Assembly: GCF_035594765.1 (NCBI RefSeq)
Contig: NC_085844.1
Coordinates: forward strand, 202,508,107 to 202,572,106
Source: Anolis carolinensis
Lineage: Eukaryota
Direction of reading: 5' to 3'
DNA length: 64,000 nt
The notes beneath the pieces were generated by a model. It was not told where the DNA came from and made no database searches. It saw only the letters and a list, made by a program, of their open reading frames with translations. Every line of letters starts with the position of its first letter. Positions within the stretch are counted from its first letter, which is position 1. Shown here one piece after another: positions 6,288-52,967 of this stretch. A program made the translations under genes and the position numbers.

Positions 6288-7189
6288 TGTCAGGACCCAG
6301 GCTGCAGAGCACCAATAACCATACGCAGAGGCCAGAATCTATCTAATATCTTTATTAAAGAAATATATAAAGTCAATAAAAACAAGTGTAGGATATAGTT
6401 CAGAAGTAGACCTTTCAGGAAAGGTCAAATATAGTCCAGAAAAACAAAGTCCAATATATGATATTAAGGTCCAAAGTTATAATCCACTTCACCGAAACAC
6501 ACACTATTTTGCAAGCAATAGTGTGGGGAACTGTCCATAGTCTTAGAGGCTTAAGGTAAATCCGAATCAAGGGAAACAAGGCTGGGATCCGAGAAGCAGG
6601 ATCCGTGGTTTAAGACGCAAGGCAAGGCAAACTTGAGGCTTGGCAAGGTCCAACTTGAACAAGACAATCGTGGAACAAGAACTGAGTCCATAGAAATCCG
6701 TGGAACAAGGCTGGGCTGGGAACTTGATTCAGGAGCTGGGAACTGGAGTACGTAGTCTACACGCGATCTCACTCCACGAGCTGACGAATTGACTCCGCAA
6801 GGAATCCTTTGTGGCCAACATCTATATAGGATCTTGTTTTCCCGCCAAAGCACACTTTCTCTGGGGAACAAGAACCGAAACCTATACTGTCCAGATGCAG
6901 GACTCCTTAAACTTTCCCAAGGGAACAGACTTAATCATCTAATTGTCTGGCAGCTATCCTGGCGCTTCGGCGACTCGCCTCCCTAGCATGTCTATCTTGA
7001 TTATAATAAAGGCGGCGAGAAAATGGGGGAGATTTCGGCTCAAGGCTTGTTTGGCTGTCTTCTTGTGGGCAAACATCCTGCAGCTGCAAGGGCTCCAAAT
7101 CTGGCAGAAACGGTGGGAAACCCAAGTTTTCCTCTTCATCTGTCACAACAGTACTAGGAACAGGACTACATGGCCCATGAGACATCACA
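6288..7189 (-). mobile_element. Solo LTR (902 bp) of an LTR retrotransposon, probably Gypsy-type
   Basis: TGT...ACA termini; perfect 5-bp TSD GTTTG (6283-6287 / 7190-7194); TATA-like TATATA at 6828-6823; AATAAA at 6356-6351; homologous to the LTR at 20368-21246. Superfamily is inferred. Confidence 0.88.
6931..7188 (-). CDS. Putative 85-aa LTR-U3-encoded reading frame ending in RRSARIAAR
   Basis: Open from LTR nt 2 to TAA; peptide-level similarity to the frame in the second LTR. Confidence 0.55.
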   Translation of the reverse strand: MMSHGPCSPVPSTVVTDEEENLGFPPFLPDLEPLQLQDVCPQEDSQTSLEPKSPPFSRRLYYNQDRHAREASRRSARIAARQLDD

Positions 7190-14552: not shown

Positions 14553-15085
14553 CAGGCCTGAACTCTCCATAGAAGCCCATATGATTAAACCAAGGCTGTC
14601 ATACTTTGGGCATATTGTGAGGCAACATGACTCATTAGAAAATATGATAAAATTTGCTAAAATTGAAGGCAGTGGGAAAATAATGGGACTGCCTTACTGG
14701 TGGGTTGACTCGTAGAATCGTAGAGTTGGAAGAGACCTTACGGGCCATCCAGTTCAACCCCCTGCCAAGAAGCAGGAAAATCTCATTCAAAGCACCCCCG
14801 ACAGATGGCCATCCAGCCTCTGCTTAAAAGCCTCCAAAGAAGGAACCTCCACCACACTCTGGGGCAGAGAGTTCCAGTGCCGAACAGCTCTCACAGTCAG
14901 GAAGTTCTTCCCGATGTTCAGGTGGAATCTCCTTTCCTGTAGTTTGAAGCCATTGTTCCGCGTCCTAGACTCAATCAAAGAAACAGCAGTCTATGTTTAC
15001 AAGGCTTAGCAGAGCTGTTAATCTAATAATATGGTGTTATGGCGATCTCTCATTCATAGAATCACCACAAGCTGAACTGGCAGCA
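14553..15085 (+). mobile_element. Old RTE/BovB-like LINE 3' remnant split by the CR1 insertion
   Basis: Decayed RLSYFGHIVR...LE...KIEG...W.DSIKE peptide continuing across the CR1. Confidence 0.6.
14712..14967 (-). mobile_element. CR1 LINE 3' fragment nested in an RTE remnant
   Basis: Reverse complement of the CR1 3' end seen at 21300-21564; GACTC duplicated at 14707-14711 and 14968-14972. Confidence 0.9.
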
Positions 15086-18000: not shown

Positions 18001-20367
18001 GATGACTCCCATCACTGGAATGTAGCCATTGAAGGCTATAACCTCTTTCACAGAAACAGAACAAAGGGGAGAGGAGGGGGAGTAGCCATATATGTCAAAA
18101 ACATTTACGTTGCAGAAGAAATGGAACCGGGACTCAAAAAGATCTCATTGGTGGCGACTACTACAGACCTTTGAGCCAGGATGAAGAACTCAATGAAGCC
18201 TTCTGTCAGCAGTTGACCAAACAGGCACAAAGAAGAGATATAGTAGACATGGGCGATTTCAACTATTCCGATATCTGCTGTAAAACAAACTCGTCCAAGA
18301 GTACAAAGTCCAACAAATTCCTCACTTGCCTTGGAGAACATTTTATGGTCCAGAAGGTAGAAGAGGCAACGAGGGGATCCTCTACTCTTGATCTCATCCT
18401 AACAAACGCGGAGGACCTGATCAATGCAGTTGAAGTGGTTGGATCCTTAGGGGCAAGCAACAATGTGCTCCTGCAGTTTGCGATACAAAGAAAGGCCAAA
18501 ACTAAGACAAGTCAAAACATTCTGGACTTTGGGAGAGCTGACTTCCAAAAAATGAAGGAAATACTGAGTGGCATTCAGTGGATGCCAATACTAAAAGACA
18601 AGGGAGTTCAGGATGGATGGGAGTTTTTCAAAAGTGAAATACTCAAGGTGCAAATGCAAACAGTGCCAACAAAGAATAAAAATAAGACAAGTGCGAAGAA
18701 GCCAGAATGGATGTCCAAAGAACTTCTAACTGGGCTAATATTCAAAGGAGACATGCACAAGAAGTGGAAAAAGGGAGAAATCACCAAAGGAGAATTCAAA
18801 CAAATATCCAATTCCTGTAGGGAAAAGGTTCACAAGGCTAAAGCGGAAAACGAGCTCAGGCTTGCCAGAGACATTAAAAATAATAAAAAGGGCTTCTTTG
18901 CTTATGCCGGTAAGAAAAGGAAGAACAAGGAGGCGATAGGGCCTCTGCGAGGAGAAGACGGGGTTATGCTGACAGGGGATAGGGGAATGCAGAACTACTT
19001 AATGTCTTTTTAGCCTCAGTCTTCTCACAAAAAGAAAGCAGTCCTCAACCTCAGCAACATGGAGTGGACGAAGGATTGGGGGAAATCCAACCCCAAACAG
19101 GGACAGAAATTGTCCAGGAATACCTGGCTGCTCTAAATGAATTCAAGTCTCCAGGGCCGGATCAACTACACCTAAGAGTATTGAAGGAACTAGTGGAAGT
19201 TATTTTGGAACCACTGGCAATCATCTTTGAGAGTTCTTGGAGAACAGGAGGAGTCCCAGCAGATTGGAGGAGGACCAATGTGGTCCCTATCTTCAAGAAG
19301 GGAAAAAAAGTACGACCCAAACAATTACCATCCGGTCAGTATCACGTTGATACCAGGCAAGATTCTGGAAAAGATCGTGAAGGAAGTGGTCTGCAAACAC
19401 TTAGAAACAAATGCGGCCATTGTTAATAGTAAACATGGATTTATCAAAAACAAATCATGCCAGACCAAACTGATCTCTTTTTTCGATAGAGTTACAAGCT
19501 GGGTAGATGCAGGGAATGCTGTGGATGTAGCGTACCTGGATTTCAGTAAGGCCTTTGACAAGGGCCCCCATGACCTTCTGGCAAACAAGTTAGTCAAATG
19601 TGGGCTAGGCAAAACTACGGTTAGGTGGATCTGTAATTGGTTAAGTGAATGAACCCAAAGGGTGCTCACCAATGTGTCTTCTTCATCCTGGAAAGAAGTC
19701 ACGAGTGGAGTGCCACGGGATTCCGTCTTGGGCCCAGTCCTGTTCAACATCTTTATTAATGACTTAGATGAAGGGTTAGAAAGCATGATCATCAAGTCTG
19801 CAGACGACACCAAATTGGGAGGGATAGCTAATACTCCAGAAGACAGGAGCAGAATTCAAAACAATCTTAACAGATTAGAGAGATGGGCCGAAACTAACAA
19901 AATGGAGTTCAACAGAGACAAATGCAAGATACTCCACTTAGGCAGAAAAAATGAAATGCAAAGATACAGAATGGGGGATGATGTCTGGCTCGACAGCAGT
20001 ACGTGTGAAAAAGATCTTGGAGTCCTCGTGGACAACAAATTAAATGTGAGCCTACAATGTGATGCGGCGGTAAAAAAAGCCAACGGGATTTTGGCCTGCA
20101 TAAATAGAAGTATAGTGTCTAGATCCAGGGAAGTCATGCTACCTCTCTATTCTGCCTTGGTCAGACCACACCTGGAATACTGTGTCCAATTCTGGGCACC
20201 GCAATTGAAGGGAGATGTTGACAAGCTGGAAAATGTCCAGAGGATGGCGACTAAAACGATTAAGTGTCTGGAGAACAAGCCCTATGAAGAGTGGCTTAAG
20301 GAGCTGGGCATGTTTAGCCTGCAGAAGAGAAGGCTGAGAGGAGACAGGATAGCCATGTATAAATATG

Positions 20368-21246
20368 TGTCATATCCCAGCCGCCTTTGGGTTCTGTACC
20401 TGGTTCAGAAATGAACTTTGACCAGGATGAAGCTTACTCTGACTTTCCCCCTAGTTCTCCTCCGAGTTCCTTCCAATTACAGACCCCAGCTGTGGATAGC
20501 TCCGAGGCTTCCTTAATTGGGAGAGATACTGATAACATTACTCCCGTGGAAGAACCAGATGTTCCAAGCTCCCCAGGAAATGTATCCTTTAACAGAAGAC
20601 AGTTTTTTGCAGCAACAGAGATCCCAGACACAGCAGCTTTGCAGGAGTCAACGATTGGCATCTAGAGGGGATACTGGATAGCAGATTGCTTTGGGAACCT
20701 TTGGAGAGTTGGGTTCCCTTCGCTGTTATTAGATCTAACTTCTATAAAAGTGTCTTGCACTGTGAACTACTTGTGGTGTCAACGTAGCGACTTCACCGTT
20801 TCCAGTTCCCTGATTTCACCAAGCCGAGTCTCTTGTTTCCTGGCGGCCAAGCTGAGCTGCGAGTCCCGTTTTAATCCGGAGTGAATTCACGTCCTTTCCT
20901 TGTTCCTGAATCCAGATTGCTTTTAGCTTCGTCTTTTGCCTGCCTTGAAATCCAAGACTTTCTAGTGACTTTGGACTTTGTTATTTACTCCTGCTTCCTT
21001 GTTGTTTTCCCTGCTCAAGAACATTTCAACAGTTTTGAGCATGTTTCGGTTTCTGGACTTTGGACAATAATATTGGACATATCTCTTCAACGCTTTGGAC
21101 TAATTCATACCATTCCTTAAAGGACTATTGCTCACTCATCCTTTCCACTTATTCTTTCCTGAATTTATTATTGTTTTAATAAAGATATTATATGATTATT
21201 GGTCTCTGTTTGGTTTCCAGTGTTCAAGCTGCCTTGGGGTGCAACA
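20368..21246 (+). mobile_element. Solo LTR (879 bp) inserted into the CR1 ORF2
   Basis: TGT...ACA termini; perfect 5-bp TSD ATATG (20363-20367 / 21247-21251); removing it restores CR1 ...MYKYVRGSHREEG; TATAAAA at 20743-20749; AATAAA at 21178-21183. Confidence 0.92.
20369..20681 (+). pseudogene. Frameshifted homologue (~103 aa) of the LTR-U3 reading frame, ending LCRSQRLASRGDTG*
   Basis: Open from LTR nt 2. Removing one T from the T6 run at 20603-20608 gives a gap-free 26-aa alignment with the C-terminus of the other LTR peptide. Confidence 0.55.
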
Positions 21247-22682
21247 ATATGTGAGGGGAAGTCATAGGGAGGAGGGAGCAAGCTTGTTTTCTGCTGCCCT
21301 GGAGACTAGGACGTGGAACAATGGCTTCAAACTACAGGAAAGGAGATTCCACCTGAACATTAGGAGGAACTTCCTCATTGTGAGAGTTGTTCGGCAGTGG
21401 AACTCTCTGCCCCAGAGTGTGGAGGAGGCTCCTTCTTTGGAGGCTTTTAAGCAGAAGCTGGATGGCCATCTGTCAGGTGTGCTTTGAGTGTGATTTTCCT
21501 GCTTCTTGGCAGGGGGTTGGACTGGATGGCCCGTAAGGTCTCTTCCAACTCTATGATTCTATGAATTAAAATTACAGGAGCTCTGGCCAAGATCCAATCT
21601 GGCAACCTTTCACTAGTTAGACTTACAGATAACCAACCAAACCTCAGACCTTACACAATTCTTAGCTGCCTAACTATGAAATGCTCACCATGCTCAATGA
21701 TTCAAGTGTTCTCCAGAATTTGTGCACAGGTAGTTGGATAGGTGTTAAATTCACTCAGCAGAGGCTACCCAGACCATCCCACTTACCACCTTATCACATT
21801 GAAAAATGTCCCAGTTGTAGGACACTTCAGCCTCTATTCAAACATGGAGAGGTACTGAGCTCATCACATGAGTTAAACTACTTCTGGCTGTCATACATAG
21901 CCCTCCATGGTTGAAAAGAGGCAGAAGTCTTCTGAAAAGAGGGAACTCATCACATTGATAAATTTCCACCTTGTAGAACACTTCAGCCTCTTTTCTAGAA
22001 TGGAGAGGCATGGAGCTCATCACATGTTCCAGGGCTGAAAAAAAGGCTGAAATGTTCTGAAAGGAGGGAACTTTGAACATGGGCCAGCAATTGTGATTAG
22101 AGCTCCAATCCTATCAAACTTTACTTACATTTTTACTACAGAAAAACAGGTGTGATGGGAACCATCAAAGTTTCCTGTTCTATTTCATTTCCCAACCATC
22201 ATTAGTCTCTTGTATCCGATGAGGTTTGATGCAGATCAGTAGGATCCCATGGAAAGCAATGGTTTTAACCTGGATCTCTGTCTCTTGTATCCTCTGGGGT
22301 TTGGGGGAGAATGCTTTTTTCCCATGAGAAGATGAGATTTTAAACTGATATCAGTCTCCTTTAATGTAAAGGGCTTTGGGCAGGGCAAGAGGTCTCTTGG
22401 TTTGTGGATATTATTGTTTCTCCTGATTAAAAACAAAAAAGTAATATTGACCTTTTGATGAATGTATTGCCAGCTCTTAAAATATGATGTGTGAGAGTGT
22501 GATGGGGAAGCAGAACATGAAACAGGACTGCTGACGACGTAAGAGGGGTGATTTTCTACCTTAAAGGGACAGTCACCTATGCTTTCCCATCTCAATGTGG
22601 TGAGGTCATAACAAGAGTGTACTCAGCAAAACAATGTTTGAATGTGTTCTAAACCCTTTTTTGTCCTGATTTTTTGTCCTGA

Positions 22683-28563: not shown

Positions 28564-28858
28564 CAGGGCCGAAGCCAGAAAAAAAATTCGGGGAGGGTTT
28601 TGAAAATTGGGGGGGGGGGGGGGTTGAACCCCTAACCCCCCCCCCCCCCCCGGCTACAGACCAGTTAATATCTGCTTGAGATAGTGCCTGGAGGGGCTCT
28701 TAATTTTTTGCGTCTCATAGACTTAGCATGGGGATTTGGTTAACCAGTTAAAATTCATGAGTAAACCAGGTTTTTTTTTAACCTGAAAAATTTCGGGGGG
28801 GGGGGGGGAGGTTTGAACTCCTAACCCCCCCCCCCCCCCCCCCTTCGCTACAGGCCTG
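28564..28858. mobile_element. hAT-type MITE with poly-G/poly-C tracts
   Basis: Imperfect TIR CAGGGCCGAAGC / GCTACAGGCCTG; perfect 8-bp TSD CTGTGCAG. Confidence 0.85.
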
Positions 28859-34775: not shown

Positions 34776-35570
34776 CAGTGGTTCCCAAACTTATTTGACC
34801 TACCGTCCTCTTTCCAGAAAAAATATTACTCAGTGCCCCCTGGAAAGGAGGGCATGGCTTATAGGGGTGGGCGTGGCTCCTGCTCAAGAGGGCGGGGCTG
34901 AGCCTCTCCATTAGTCCAAGATGCAGGGCTGGGAGGGGGAGGGGGAGGTGGGCAGGGCCACAAATGGGTGGCCAGGAGTGGGATGGGCGGAGTTCTGAGG
35001 CAGGGCTGAGAATCTATATTTCTCCTGAGGCGCCTGCCAGGACACAGGGGGTGGGGCTAGAGGAGGGGGCGGGGCCTCTTCCCAAGTGCCTGACGGGGCT
35101 GAACCTCTATACTCCACCCCCATGTTCTAACAAGCGCCTCAGGGGAGGTATACAGAGGCTCAGCACTGTCTTGCACTCTTTGGAAGGGGCCCCATCCCCA
35201 CCCCAGTCCCGCCCTTTAGTCCTAAAAGGCCTCTCAGGAGTAGTATAGAGGCTCAGCCCTGCCTTGGGCTCTTGGAAGGAGGCCCCACCCCCTTCCCTAG
35301 CTCTGCTCTCTGTGTCCTAACAGGCGCCTCAGGAGAAATATAGATTCTCAGCCCTGTTTCGGGCCCTTGGGAAGAAGCCACACCCACTCCTCTAGCTCCG
35401 CCCCCTGTGTCCTAACAGGCACCTCAGGTGCTCAGCCCTGTCTCTGGCACTTGGGAAGAGGCCCCGCCCCTCCCCGGCCCTGCCCCATCTCCTAATAGGT
35501 GCCATCACCGCCCTCCTGGATCGCTGCAGCGCCCACCAGGGGGTGGTAGCACCCACTTTGGGAATCACTG
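34776..35570. mobile_element. Non-autonomous hAT element, GC-rich, with internal direct and inverted repeats
   Basis: TIR CAGTGGTTCCCAAA / TTTGGGAATCACTG; perfect 8-bp TSD TTCTAACA. Confidence 0.9.
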
Positions 35571-47794: not shown

Positions 47795-48028
<234 letters not shown>

Positions 48029-48627
48029 TTATTTGGGTTGGATCAGGATTTAGGCATATGCAACTCAAAGAGTGGAATGGATTTCCTTGTCTTTTTTGAC
48101 TTGGCAATCCCTCCTGGCCACTGGAAATGTTATGTGGAAGGTTAGGGGATACTGTGGTACAGGTGGGAAGTCTTGAAAATCAGATGGAGAAAATCTTTTA
48201 TGAGTTTTGTTGTGCATATAGTGATAATTTTGATAGGAAAGAAAAATAATATGAGTTTGAGATACAGGCTACATTAGTCATGTTCAGTAGAGGTTCTGAT
48301 ACAAAAAGAGAGCTAAAGAACTAAAAATGTCAAACGAATCTTGTAAAAGATAGATCATACTCCTTAAAGCAATGGGCACTACTTCCCAGTTATATTTGTA
48401 TCACCACATACCACCTTATAGCCTTTTATGGTTAACTAGCAACAATTGTGTGTCTTATAAAACAAACACAAATATGCAATTTCACTTGTAAAAAAACTTT
48501 TGAAGTTGGAGAACAGAGAAGAATCTTTAATGGTCAAAAACTGAAGGTTCACTAAAACAAACCCCTAAACTGCATTAGATATAACTGTAAGGAAATAAAG
48601 AGGATATCATAACTGAAATATGTGTAT

Positions 48628-48840
48628 GTGTGTGTGCCTTCAGGTTGCCTGTCAACTTATGGCAATCACCATGGGCTTTCTCAGGCAAGGAATATTCTGA
48701 GTTGGCTTGCAAATTCCTTTTTCTGCAGCACAGACAGCACCTGGTATTCAGTGGTCGTATCCCATCCAGGTATTCACCAGGACTGAGCCTGCTTTCCTTC
48801 CATGATCAGATAGTATCCGATGCCTTTAGGGTATTTAGAC
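48628..48840 (-). mobile_element. 5S rRNA-derived SINE (SINE3) with RTE-type tail, intronic
   Basis: Reverse strand TCTGATCATGGAAGGAAAGCAGGCTCAGTCCTGGTGAATACCTGGATGGGA...GAATACCAGGTGCTG aligns to 5S rRNA; tail ...gaaggcacacac. Confidence 0.75.
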
Positions 48841-49980
48841 AAGTCCATAAAACATAAGATGCCCTCCTGCCTCTGTCCTGGTTCCAAGACTTTCAAACCT
48901 AAATGCCTGAAATTTGGCACAGATGCTAGAAGGACCATAGGGATATGAATCTTGTAAACATTTGGTTTAAAAATAGGTTTCTAACTTTTCCAAAGCTGGA
49001 AATGTCTGCTAGCTAGAAAATAAAACAAGGCATGGATACTGATAAATGGTTTTATTAAATGGAAGTGTTGAAATATAATGCTAGGTCAGTCTGAAATAAG
49101 TTTGATATGATTTATGATTTAACTGTGGATGATAAAACTCATCCTATATAGATCACTGAGAATTGGGTATCACTGAGCTGACACATCTGTTCCCACTTGA
49201 ATATTTGGCACAAAACCAATACAGGTCAGAGGGCCAAGGGATGCAAATCACTATACAGAATGCCATGTTCCTCATCATGAAACCTTTCTCATTTAAGATG
49301 GGCTATGAGGCCATTCAACTATAAATTACCAAGGAGAATTGTCTAGCTTTCAAGACAACTTTAGCTAGTCCAATCTGGTAGGCTCTTGGGTAATATGAGA
49401 GGTTATGCATGAACAAAAACTAAATCAAGGTTGCACTTGAATGCAGTGACAGAGTAGATGAAGACTAATAAGCTGAGGCTGTAGAGTTCCCCAAACTGCA
49501 AGCCTGAAGTGGTGCTTTTACGATGTGAGCATACCAAAATATCATAAAGACATCTGATCCTGTCTAAACAAGATCAGTACTGTACTTGATTGACAGCTTT
49601 CTAGGAATTTTCTAGATACTCCAGCATGGCTCTATGGTGACTTCTAGTGGAAACTATTAATTTCACTGTTCACAATTGTCCATGGTTTCCTGTTTCCATA
49701 GACATTTCAGGAATGTATTCCCCACAAACAGGGGCCCAGTGTTGTATTTTATTTCCCTGTGATATAATTGTAAACATATTCAGGAACTGTGCATAAAAAT
49801 GACAACTCTTCAATTCCTTGATTTCCCTAGAGTGCAGATATTGTTTATTGTAATTTTGTTTAGTGCATTTAATTAAGAACCATTTATACACAAATACACT
49901 ATTCCTGTTTGTGCAGTAACTAGAAACTCGGGAAAGCTTTGAAGAAGGAACAGGATCCAAAAGTGGCTCATTAATTCTTA

Positions 49981-50229
<249 letters not shown>

Positions 50230-52967
50230 TTAGAAATCTAAGAAAATTAGGTTTCATTACCATCCACCTCACCACTTTTTGTGTTCTTTTCACCAAATGC
50301 CATTTAATGGCTAAAACAACAGTAATTATAATAAAATATACCATATTTGACAAGAAGAAGAAAAAAGGAGAAAGGGAAGGAGGTGGCAGCCAGAAGTATT
50401 GCAATAAAAAATGAGAATCAAATTCTACTTGGTAGCTAATTGCAAACAAACTAAATATACTTATTTTCTCTGATATTAGGATAAGCACACAATCTATATG
50501 GAGCTATTTCTTGATCTGAATTAATCAGACACCTTGGACTGTGCTGGATCACCACTGAAGTGAAAATAAGTTATGGCTAGTCCTATGAGGTTCCTGTAAT
50601 ATAGTTACTCTCTATATTCATGTATTTTTCTGTTTACCATGTTGATAAGCATAAGTTATTTGCAGTGTGCAACATAAGCTTTCCACTGTGCTATTGTTGC
50701 ATCAACACCACAATATTATACTTCAACCTACAATGAACAAAAATTCAAATGAGGATATGTTTTGCATCTTCTCTTTGCTTACTTGAGTTCTTTTTAATCT
50801 TATGAAAGCTAGTGTTGTTCAGTCACTAGGTGCCACTATTTGTTGCCTTTGAATGTAAAGAACAATGCTATATTCTGAGAACAGTCAGACATAACAATGA
50901 ACACAAACAACCAAAAATTCCACTTTTAAAACCCAATATATGAAAATTGGAAACCTAGATAATCAGTGACAAAAAGAGAACCAGAAATATTGATCATGTA
51001 AACTAGGTACTGAGAGCAGTAGCTCTGTTGTGTTGCCTTAGGATGATAAGAGTAGAAGCACTGAAGTAAATGTACTTGTCTGAATTTTGGAAATCATGTA
51101 GTTACTGCTAACTTCTACAACTATTTGTACCCATTATGAATGGGAGAAAACTGAATAAATAGTCGATAAATCAATGCAGATAGTTTCCATAAAGCTCTAT
51201 ATTGGCTAAGGTACAATTTATCTGAAAGACCCATATGGGCCTGTCTGAGAGAGGCCCTTCTTTCTGTCCCACCACCTTCATGGAACATGGTAGAAAATCC
51301 TCTTCCCAAATGCTTCCAGGCACTGGAACTAATTGATGACAGGTTTTATTATTAATGTATCATCTATGTTTGTTTTTAATTGTTCTGCTTTTGAATAATG
51401 TTTTATTTCTATGGATAGTTCAATTTTATCAACTTCATTTTGGGTGATGTGATCTGTTTTCATTTTTGTAAATTGTCTTGGGTTCCAGGGCCGGGGTACA
51501 TGTGAGATTTAACAAAAAGCAAACAAATAATAATTTGAATAGTCATGACAATGATAATGATACTGTTACTCCCCGCTCCCTGCATCCACAATCAGATGCA
51601 ATACCCAGACATGTTTCTGGCATATTATTGGGAAAACCTTGGTATTATCCATTATCTCAAGACTTGCCCCATGTGCATTTACACATTACAAAGTTGTGGG
51701 ACACTTATAGCTATGCATCTTTCACAAAAACAGTTATAGGCCACGTAGCTGCACATCTTGCTGTTTCACCATATAACTATTTCACCACAAAAGGAAAGGA
51801 TGTTGGCTGCACAATGCTCAAAAATTTGGGAATAAATCATAAGATTTATTTCTAAGGACGTTATCACACCTGCGTGCTGTCTCACCACAATCCTGGTAAT
51901 TTAGGGAATTGACATATAGAACAATCTGTATTGCACCTCTCTGTATTGTACATCTCTGCTGCTTTGGTAATCTGTAATTCCTTGATCTGTCTTCCTGCCT
52001 TCTCATCATGCTTTCAGATTATTATTATTAATATTAATTTAAATTTATTACACTTCTATATATATAAAAGAGTGATGGCATCAGGGCAGCGGACAAAACA
52101 AGCTAGTTATGTAATAAATGGCAATACAAAAGAAAGAAATGTAAAAGAAGATAAACCAAATGGGGAGGGAAAACAGTCTGCTTGGGAACAGTGAAGGAGA
52201 GAGGAGGAGAATCATACTCACTGATGTCACACAACTGCTGGCATATCGGAATAGAAGTGGAAGGGACCTTTCATACTGAAGTAAATAAGTAATGGGAAGG
52301 CAGTGGTATGGAAAACCAAGGACAAGTTTTACCCATCAATGAAAAGGAGTGCTATTGTAACTGAGGGAAGGCAAAGTGACAATACACACAGGTGACAACT
52401 ACTGGCAACAAATACTATTATACCACTGCAATTCCAATTTGCCAGCTTTGCGTGATAAAGTCCTAAATCTTTGGCATCTGTAGTCAGAGAAGAATTATGA
52501 TTCACTTTTCTCTGTGGCAGGATAAAAACAAAGCCAAACCTTCCTGTTAGCTTTCAAGTGTGTGATGAGGCATCCAGCTTTGATCTGAAATTAAGTCATA
52601 CTTTAAAAAATGAACTGGTGGTATAACCAACAGCAAATCACTCTCTTGCTGTTCAAGTTCACATGGATATTGTAACAAGCTTGCCCTCATGCAGTTCTCA
52701 TCAAAGTCGCCTCTCAGCCACTTCTCCTGACTGACCTTCAAGCTCCAGGAAAACATTCTAGTTTTAGGTACTCTATGAGGCTTAAATTTTCAGTATCATT
52801 TAGGGATAAAACTAATCTTTTCAACACTGTAATGGAAGTCGCTGGTCAAACATGCAGTGAAAAAGGGTGGTGTAAAGGTAACACAAGATATTGGCACACT
52901 GAACTTTATTTATGTAGTGTATGTTACTTAATTTTGATGAGAGGAGTTCCCCAATTTTAGCATGACA

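What the first reader, a model, noticed from the sequence alone, without database searches (positions are those of the whole stretch)
20369..20681. Second LTR carries the same U3 frame, broken by lesions that look post-insertional
The frame is open from LTR nt 2. One extra T in the T6 run (20603-20608) shifts it; correcting this gives ...FNRRQFLQQQRSQTQQLCRSQRLASRGDTG*. The Cys codon TGC (20640-20642) sits where the other LTR has Arg and is one CpG-type transition from CGC, which would restore RRSQRLASR. Homopolymer slippage and CpG decay are typical neutral lesions, so the active family probably encoded an intact ~103-aa tail. This copy is independent support for the finding above, and the ORF track misses it.
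Basis: partly seen in the sequence, partly recalled or inferred. Interest (0 to 1): 0.7.

Follow-up and report, generated by a model that had tools for sequence, protein, structure and literature searches.

The report
Decayed retrotransposon LTR hiding integrase tail
This is a dead leftover end-repeat of a lizard jumping gene; its two defects are mostly absent from sister copies, which suggests the active element's integrase ended in a tail with a possible nucleosome-gripping motif.

Summary
20368-21246 is a solo LTR (5-bp TSD) inside a CR1 LINE of a probable anole. Its frame is open from nt 2, slips by one base at the T6 run and ends CRSQRLASRGDTG*.

In contigs of four runs the window's letter at 20640 is the minority state (4-15% of depth, CpG type). 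In 28-54% of depth the run differs in length by one letter so that the frame is unbroken; this is probably a lower bound. Of 16 listed variable sites, 11 are third codon positions (p=0.004; downstream control flat). So the family frame looks selected.

The other LTR is a different family. In a named Anolis protein its frame follows a chromovirus integrase chromodomain, and its motif matches yeast Dot5's acidic-patch motif at 7 of 8 residues.

Not shown: a chromodomain link for this family, the majority run length, exclusion of an assembly error, or any binding. Pol frames running into the 3' LTR are known in plant chromoviruses; I found no report of an HMGN-like integrase tail. This copy is ordinary decay, but it gives real support for a testable new variant.

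The parts
20368..21246 (+). Solo LTR B, 879 nt, TG..CA, probable Sushi-like chromovirus (Ty3/Gypsy)
   Evidence: joint skipping 884 nt and mixed loose ends at 20368; 5' end fits the Sushi motif TGTYANR
20363..20367 (+). Left target-site duplication ATATG
21247..21251 (+). Right target-site duplication ATATG
   Evidence: single copy at the empty site of the CR1 near 53414
20369..20602 (+). U3 frame from LTR nt 2, 78 codons, acidic and Pro/Ser-rich; inferred continuation of pol after the chromodomain
   Evidence: 9 of 13 listed variable sites at third positions
20603..20608 (+). T6 run, site of the one-base frameshift in this copy
   Evidence: length difference in 28-54% of depth and lowest depth of 23 LTR bins in 4 of 4 runs
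20610..20681 (+). Downstream piece in the next frame, basic, ending CRSQRLASRGDTG*
   Evidence: 7 of 1000 shuffles reach its score against family-A tails
20640..20642 (+). Cys codon at the first position of the HMGN-like motif; minority state among family copies, CpG type
20663..20665 (+). Stop reached by the nt-2 frame in this copy
20743..20748 (+). TATAAA, candidate TATA box
   Evidence: function not tested
21178..21183 (+). AATAAA, 69 nt from the LTR end, same distance as in LTR A
18042..21562 (+). Host LINE (CR1 type; name recalled) with broken endonuclease and RT frames, interrupted by LTR B
   Evidence: Pfam endonuclease and RVT_1; 83-84% match to the copy at 53130-53667 on both sides of the LTR
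6288..7189 (-). Solo LTR A, 902 nt, TSD CAAAC, different family
6931..7188 (-). Intact 85-aa frame of LTR A from nt 2, with RRSARIAA at 6949-6972; follows the integrase chromodomain in P0005

Best explanation
A dead solo LTR of a squamate chromovirus (Ty3/Gypsy) family, left by LTR-LTR recombination after insertion into a CR1 LINE. In the active family the pol frame ran past the integrase chromodomain and the polypurine tract into U3 at LTR nt 2. It added an acidic, probably disordered tail of about 100 residues ending in a basic RxSxRL/I-type motif. This copy has lost continuity at a T run and the first motif residue at a CpG. SHOWN: LTR anatomy, both lesions, minority state of the Cys codon, unbroken copies at the run, codon-position bias, chromodomain-to-U3 read-through for family A and for an amphisbaenian protein. 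INFERRED: the same read-through for family B; the majority run length; post-insertional timing. MECHANISM (inferred, about 0.4): the tail is a tether whose end docks on the H2A-H2B acidic patch like HMGN, Dsup and Dot5, holding the intasome on nucleosomes beside the chromodomain. In the solo LTR itself it does nothing.
For: TSD and empty site. Minority state at 20640 in 4 of 4 runs; the window letter persists in all runs at 4 of 4 CpG-type sites but is absent from at least one run at 10 of 13 other near-fixed sites, as recurrent CpG decay predicts. Unbroken copies at the run, and that bin is the lowest of 23 in 4 of 4 runs. P0005 (Anolis) has Chromo, then GDS, then the first 38 residues of tail A. 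P0009 (Rhineura) has integrase SH3, Chromo, GDS-VM and an 87-residue acidic tail with a basic end. The two natural pieces of B, placed separately, imply 2 residues between them on 2 of 3 family-A tails, where the window has 7 nt. Charge pattern is alike in 5 of 5 tails.
Against: No protein or contig joins a chromodomain to tail B: searches found no relative, and one search gave four 23-nt chance matches. 46-72% of depth at the run shows no gap and cannot be scored. Only 3 listed sites lie after the run. 30 of 70 variant rows were hidden. The B-to-A likeness is modest: 8 of 1000 shuffles reach the profile score; the piece before the run is not significant alone (136 of 1000) and the third tail gives another register. 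P0004 lacks the anchor Arg, P0009 lacks the motif, and P0005 leaves the tail after 38 residues, so no single record joins chromodomain and motif. B's 3' end does not fit the Sushi motif CNTNACA.
Confidence: 0.75

Rival explanations
1. The tail is real and translated, but its basic end is a nuclear localisation signal or a non-specific DNA-binding patch, or the tail is tolerated read-through. The HMGN likeness is incidental.
For: P0009's tail ends in a different basic sequence and P0004 lacks the anchor Arg. Basic NLS-like stretches in retrotransposon integrases are discussed, and Ty1 NLS papers cited, in PMC3605345 (passages). B matches the three reference motifs at only 4-5 of 8 as it stands.
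Against: A matches Dot5's tested motif at 7 of 8 and HMGN at 6 of 8. Two families with unalignable U3 DNA keep S-x-R-[LI]-A at the same distance from the tail end.
Confidence: 0.4
2. The frameshift is not private decay. The T6 state is common in the family (recurrent slippage or a non-autonomous subfamily), so many or most copies never joined the two frames.
For: No gap is called in 46-72% of depth at 20603.
Against: The bin with the run has the lowest depth of 23 in 4 of 4 runs, as expected if contigs with an indel are clipped (inference). Two of 3 sites after the run are third positions only in the shifted frame. The register fits family A in 2 of 3 tails.
Confidence: 0.12
3. The break at the run is a homopolymer assembly error, and this copy's frame is in fact continuous.
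For: It is the only run of five or more T in the LTR. No laid run carries the window's haplotype (letter absent in 4 of 4 runs at 20447, 20863 and 21023), so nothing confirms the run at this locus.
Against: The copy differs from the family at 17 or more of 879 positions and its host LINE is broken, so one real indel is unsurprising.
Confidence: 0.12
4. The frames are chance: a stop-poor U3 plus a short basic word.
For: About 5% of shuffles give so long a frame. No Pfam, protein or PDB match for the tails beyond Anolis copies. The motif pattern I scanned with was drawn after seeing both motifs.
Against: Third-position and silent excess with a flat downstream control; chromodomain read-through in P0005 and P0009; top four of 576 words.
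Confidence: 0.07

Closest known systems
Vertebrate chromoviruses (Sushi clade, Ty3/Gypsy, Metaviridae)
   Same: TG..CA LTR, 5' TGTYANR, AATAAA close to the 3' end (PMC3601003, passages); the sister family A follows an integrase chromodomain.
   Different: No internal region seen for family B; its 3' end departs from CNTNACA. A long U3-encoded tail after the chromodomain was not mentioned in the passages seen.
Plant CRM group A (CR motif) and Reina 'Bingo' chromoviruses
   Same: The gag-pol frame extends into the 3' LTR; in CRM the LTR-encoded part is the putative targeting domain (PMC3059260; PMC3605345; passages).
   Different: In CRM the CR motif replaces the chromodomain. Here the tail comes after a chromodomain. 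Sequence likeness to the CR motif was not tested.
HMGN / Dsup / Dot5 nucleosome-binding motif
   Same: RRSARLSA, RRSSRLTS and RRSARIAT bind the acidic patch by an arginine anchor (PMC12487698; PMC13347269; passages). LTR A matches 6, 4 and 7 of 8; B as it stands 4, 5 and 4 of 8.
   Different: Those are host proteins with tested binding. Here nothing is tested, and B has Gln at position 4 and, in this copy, Cys at position 1.
Viral acidic-patch tethers (foamy virus Gag CBS, MLV p12, KSHV LANA)
   Same: A short arginine motif holds the incoming genome on nucleosomes (PMC9040877, passages).
   Different: Those sit in Gag or latency proteins, not at the integrase end; that review has 0 occurrences of 'retrotransposon'.
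Arabidopsis Tal1/EVD Copia integrase C-terminus
   Same: A single basic residue in the integrase C-terminal region steers target choice (PMC11735389, passages).
   Different: Copia, not LTR-encoded in the passages seen, and linked to CENH3 chromatin.

Membership tests
Solo LTR of an LTR retroelement | TG..CA ends with 4-6 bp TSD, no internal region, empty site in related sequence | tested here: met
Chromovirus (Sushi clade) | Integrase ending in a chromodomain in the parent element | tested here: inconclusive
   Met for family A (P0005). No parent of family B found. The search for longer P0005 relatives could not be made.
Chromovirus (Sushi clade) | LTR end motifs TGTYANR / CNTNACA and AATAAA near the 3' end | tested here: inconclusive
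   B: 5' met, 3' not met. A: 3' met, 5' 6 of 7. AATAAA 69 nt from the end in both.
Chromovirus (Sushi clade) | RT/RNase H phylogeny | not testable with these tools
   No internal sequence; no genome held.
Endogenous retrovirus (Retroviridae) | Retroviral pol/env in the parent | tested here: inconclusive
   No parent seen for B; the only linked proteins (family A) are chromodomain integrases, which point away from it.
HMGN-like acidic-patch motif | Arg at motif positions 1, 2 and 5, Ser at 3 (PMC13347269, PMC12487698) | tested here: inconclusive
   Met in A and P0003. In B, positions 2, 3 and 5 are met; position 1 is Cys in this copy and mostly Arg in other copies. Not met in P0004 or P0009.
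HMGN-like acidic-patch motif | Acidic-patch-dependent nucleosome binding | not testable with these tools
   Needs a binding assay; no histone sequence was at hand for a complex prediction.
CRM CR motif | LTR-encoded motif in place of a chromodomain, with CR sequence conservation | not tested
   The architecture differs in family A (chromodomain present); no CR alignment was available.

The most novel reading that the evidence does not exclude
Several squamate chromovirus families encode in their LTR U3 an integrase tail that ends in a true HMGN-like acidic-patch anchor. Integrase would then read nucleosomes twice, by chromodomain and by arginine anchor. Every solo LTR of these families would scatter a ready-made nucleosome-binding coding piece through the genome, and two Anolis gene models already include one (P0003, P0004).
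Probability: 0.35. Interest if true: 0.7.

Novelty: new variant of a known kind. Interest (0 to 1): 0.45.

Why it matters
This copy is a dead repeat with two ordinary lesions. Its value is as a second, diverged witness. Two LTR families whose U3 DNA no longer aligns both keep a pol-frame tail with a basic end, and in family B the variation among copies looks like coding selection. How vertebrate Ty3/Gypsy elements engage chromatin is little studied. An acidic-patch anchor on integrase would parallel foamy Gag and MLV p12, would extend the HMGN motif to transposons, and can be tested with one short natural peptide.

Tried and rejected
Own genome: none held, so no copy-by-copy count. Protein searches with the B frame: 0 of 246 and 0 of 35 candidates at E<=10. 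Viral and metagenome contigs: 29 and 588 pattern hits, none confirmed. A 20-nt pattern gave 4 loci, all 23-nt chance matches. The search for longer relatives of P0005 could not be made. Pfam: nothing for either tail. PDB sequences: 0 hits for tail A. Atlas on P0007 gave only chromodomain clusters under 0.9; the B frame was not searched there. P0006 (E 3.5e-4) was dropped as a repeat match unrelated to the tail. P0007 and P0008 leave the element at or before the LTR start, probably by splicing in the gene model, and were not counted as tails. Expression: no RNA holder listed; two laid runs are RNA only by guess, so nothing is claimed. Depth as copy number: rejected on the tool's warning. Earlier findings: five look-ups, all empty. 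Host gene: the last plexin exon matched lies 27 kb away (110 of 143 listed minus-strand frames sent, plus the long ORFs; short plus-strand frames not scanned); no link found. No structure was predicted: the tail is low-complexity with few relatives.

Full report
WHAT IS THERE. The finding is the 5' third of an 879-nt solo LTR, 20368-21246, with TG..CA ends and the 5-bp duplication ATATG. It interrupts a LINE with endonuclease and RT remnants (the CR1 label is recalled). A second copy of that LINE near 53.4 kb shows the empty site. No genome is held. Named relatives of the window's other LTR are Anolis carolinensis proteins, so the host is probably an anole (inference). The last plexin exon matched lies 27 kb away.

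OBSERVATION. The frame from nt 2 runs 98 codons to a stop at 20663. After the T6 run (20603-20608) the next frame gives QQQRSQTQQLCRSQRLASRGDTG*. With X at the run the whole is 103 residues. The length alone is borderline: 5.1% of 5000 shuffles give 78 open codons. The other LTR (A, 6288-7189, minus, TSD CAAAC) has an intact 85-residue frame from nt 2 ending RRSARIAARQLDD*. A and B are different families: 74% over 117 nt near the polyadenylation signal, 30% over 44 residues of tail, E 4e-4. Both have AATAAA 69 nt from the end.

ARE THE LESIONS LESIONS? I laid 4 of 24 listed runs, from four studies, all contigs, at 88% likeness. At 20640 another letter is read in 96, 89, 85 and 91% of depth; it forms a CpG and changes the codon to arginine. 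Of 34 listed LTR sites, 17 differ from the window in at least 77% of depth in every run. Four of these are CpG type, and at all four the window's letter persists as a minority in every run. At 10 of the other 13 it is absent from at least one run. That is the pattern of recurrent CpG decay. At the run, a one-letter length difference that leaves the frame unbroken is seen in 54, 33, 28 and 30% of depth (12, 4, 2 and 3 contigs). The rest is unscored. The bin holding the run is the lowest of 23 LTR bins in 4 of 4 runs, which suggests clipped contigs and an undercount, but this is inference. No listed contig has 31 letters on both sides of the run. The window's own haplotype is missing from all four runs at three sites, so neither an assembly error nor the age of the lesion could be tested. 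Four of the 7 near-fixed differences in the frame are silent (p 0.05-0.11), so part of the divergence may predate insertion or reflect another population.

IS THE FRAME SELECTED? One search showed 40 variant rows and hid 30. Of the 40, 16 lie in the frame, 18 downstream in the LTR and 6 in the LINE. Nine are silent, against 23-28% expected (p=0.004-0.018). The 18 downstream sites split 7/6/5. Among the 9 sites polymorphic between copies, 7 are third positions (p=0.008). Only 3 sites lie after the run, 2 of them third positions in the shifted frame, so selection on the motif piece rests mainly on likeness to family A. Its score is reached by 7 of 1000 shuffles. Placed separately, the two natural pieces imply two residues between them on 2 of 3 family-A tails, where the window has 7 nt. 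The third tail disagrees, and the upstream piece alone is not significant (136 of 1000).

WHAT THE FRAME IS. Tail A found 4 proteins among 1.84 billion. P0005 has a Pfam chromodomain, then GDS, then the first 38 residues of tail A. P0003 and P0004 carry whole tails inside other gene models, ending RRSARIAAK and RRSLSIAAR. P0006 was dropped as unrelated. P0009 from Rhineura floridana has integrase SH3, chromodomain, GDS-VM and an 87-residue tail with a different basic end; its LTR boundary is inferred by analogy. All five tails have an acidic body (net -9 to -14) and a basic last 30 residues (+3 to +6). So in this clade LTR nt 2 is the pol frame. For B the link is by analogy: same start geometry, shared 3' end, Sushi-type 5' motif. 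No parent of B was found, and no single record joins chromodomain and motif.

MECHANISM. Most likely the tail is a flexible tether on integrase. Its end may dock on the H2A-H2B acidic patch. Tail A matches yeast Dot5's RRSARIAT at 7 of 8, and that motif's arginines 1, 2 and 5 are required for nucleosome binding (PMC13347269). HMGN2 and Dsup use the fifth position as anchor (PMC12487698). B keeps positions 2, 3 and 5, and mostly 1 in other copies. Against this, P0004 lacks the anchor, P0009 lacks the motif, and a basic end could be an NLS. I put the acidic-patch reading at about 0.4, and the decayed-tail reading as a whole at 0.75.

WHAT IS KNOWN. Pol running into the 3' LTR is described for plant CRM and Reina chromoviruses (PMC3059260, PMC3605345). 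Acidic-patch tethers are known for foamy Gag, MLV p12 and LANA (PMC9040877). An integrase C-terminal Arg/Lys steers Tal1 (PMC11735389). LTR end motifs come from PMC3601003. For these seven papers I saw search passages only, no whole text and no supplements. PMC5053271 was seen as a listing only. Searches for an acidic-patch or HMGN-like motif in a retrotransposon integrase gave 0 papers, 2 listed papers on Dsup and Dot5, 9 listings none of which held both 'RRSxR' and 'integrase C-terminal' and 1 retroviral review. Squamate-specific searches showed nothing on this in their listings. The library lacks most subscription papers and Repbase reports, where a pol-LTR overlap in reptile Gypsy elements may be noted.

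VERDICT. The CpG lesion is well supported, the frameshift probably so, and the timing and assembly question is open. The locus is ordinary decay. It is useful as independent support for an LTR-encoded integrase tail with a candidate nucleosome anchor, a new variant of a known kind. Interest 0.45.

Noticed in passing
window 47795-60118 (-): Four consecutive exons of a plexin cytoplasmic RasGAP domain (profile 199-441) at about 59.9, 59.3, 50.1 and 47.9 kb.
   Followed up: partly
window 53014-53728: Second, 5'-truncated copy of the host LINE, 83-84% alike, holding the empty site; it lies in a plexin intron.
   Followed up: partly
window 14705-14972: Inverted 3' fragment of the same LINE, 92% complementary to 21302-21569.
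   Followed up: no
window 56385-56747: Array of about 83-nt units, direct and inverted, with long open frames on both strands; the one frame scanned had no Pfam hit.
   Followed up: partly
window 34998-35428: Units of about 95 nt in direct and inverted arrangement.
   Followed up: no
window 28609-28840: Two 43-nt G-run/C-run palindromes 189 nt apart.
   Followed up: no
P0003, P0004: Anolis gene models that end in a whole family-A LTR tail, one behind an unrelated N-terminus and one behind a LINE RT; either exonised solo LTRs or prediction artefacts.
   Followed up: partly
P0007: Anolis model joining a Gypsy chromodomain to a second domain listed as PF01393 (chromo shadow, recalled), which mimics HP1; probably a mis-joined prediction.
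   Followed up: partly
P0009: The Rhineura tail ends in a different basic motif (RGRPVSLRPKR); a likeness to the foamy virus Gag chromatin-binding motif is recalled, not tested.
   Followed up: no
window 20447, 20863, 21023: The window's letters are absent from all four laid runs, so this insertion may be polymorphic or from another population.
   Followed up: partly
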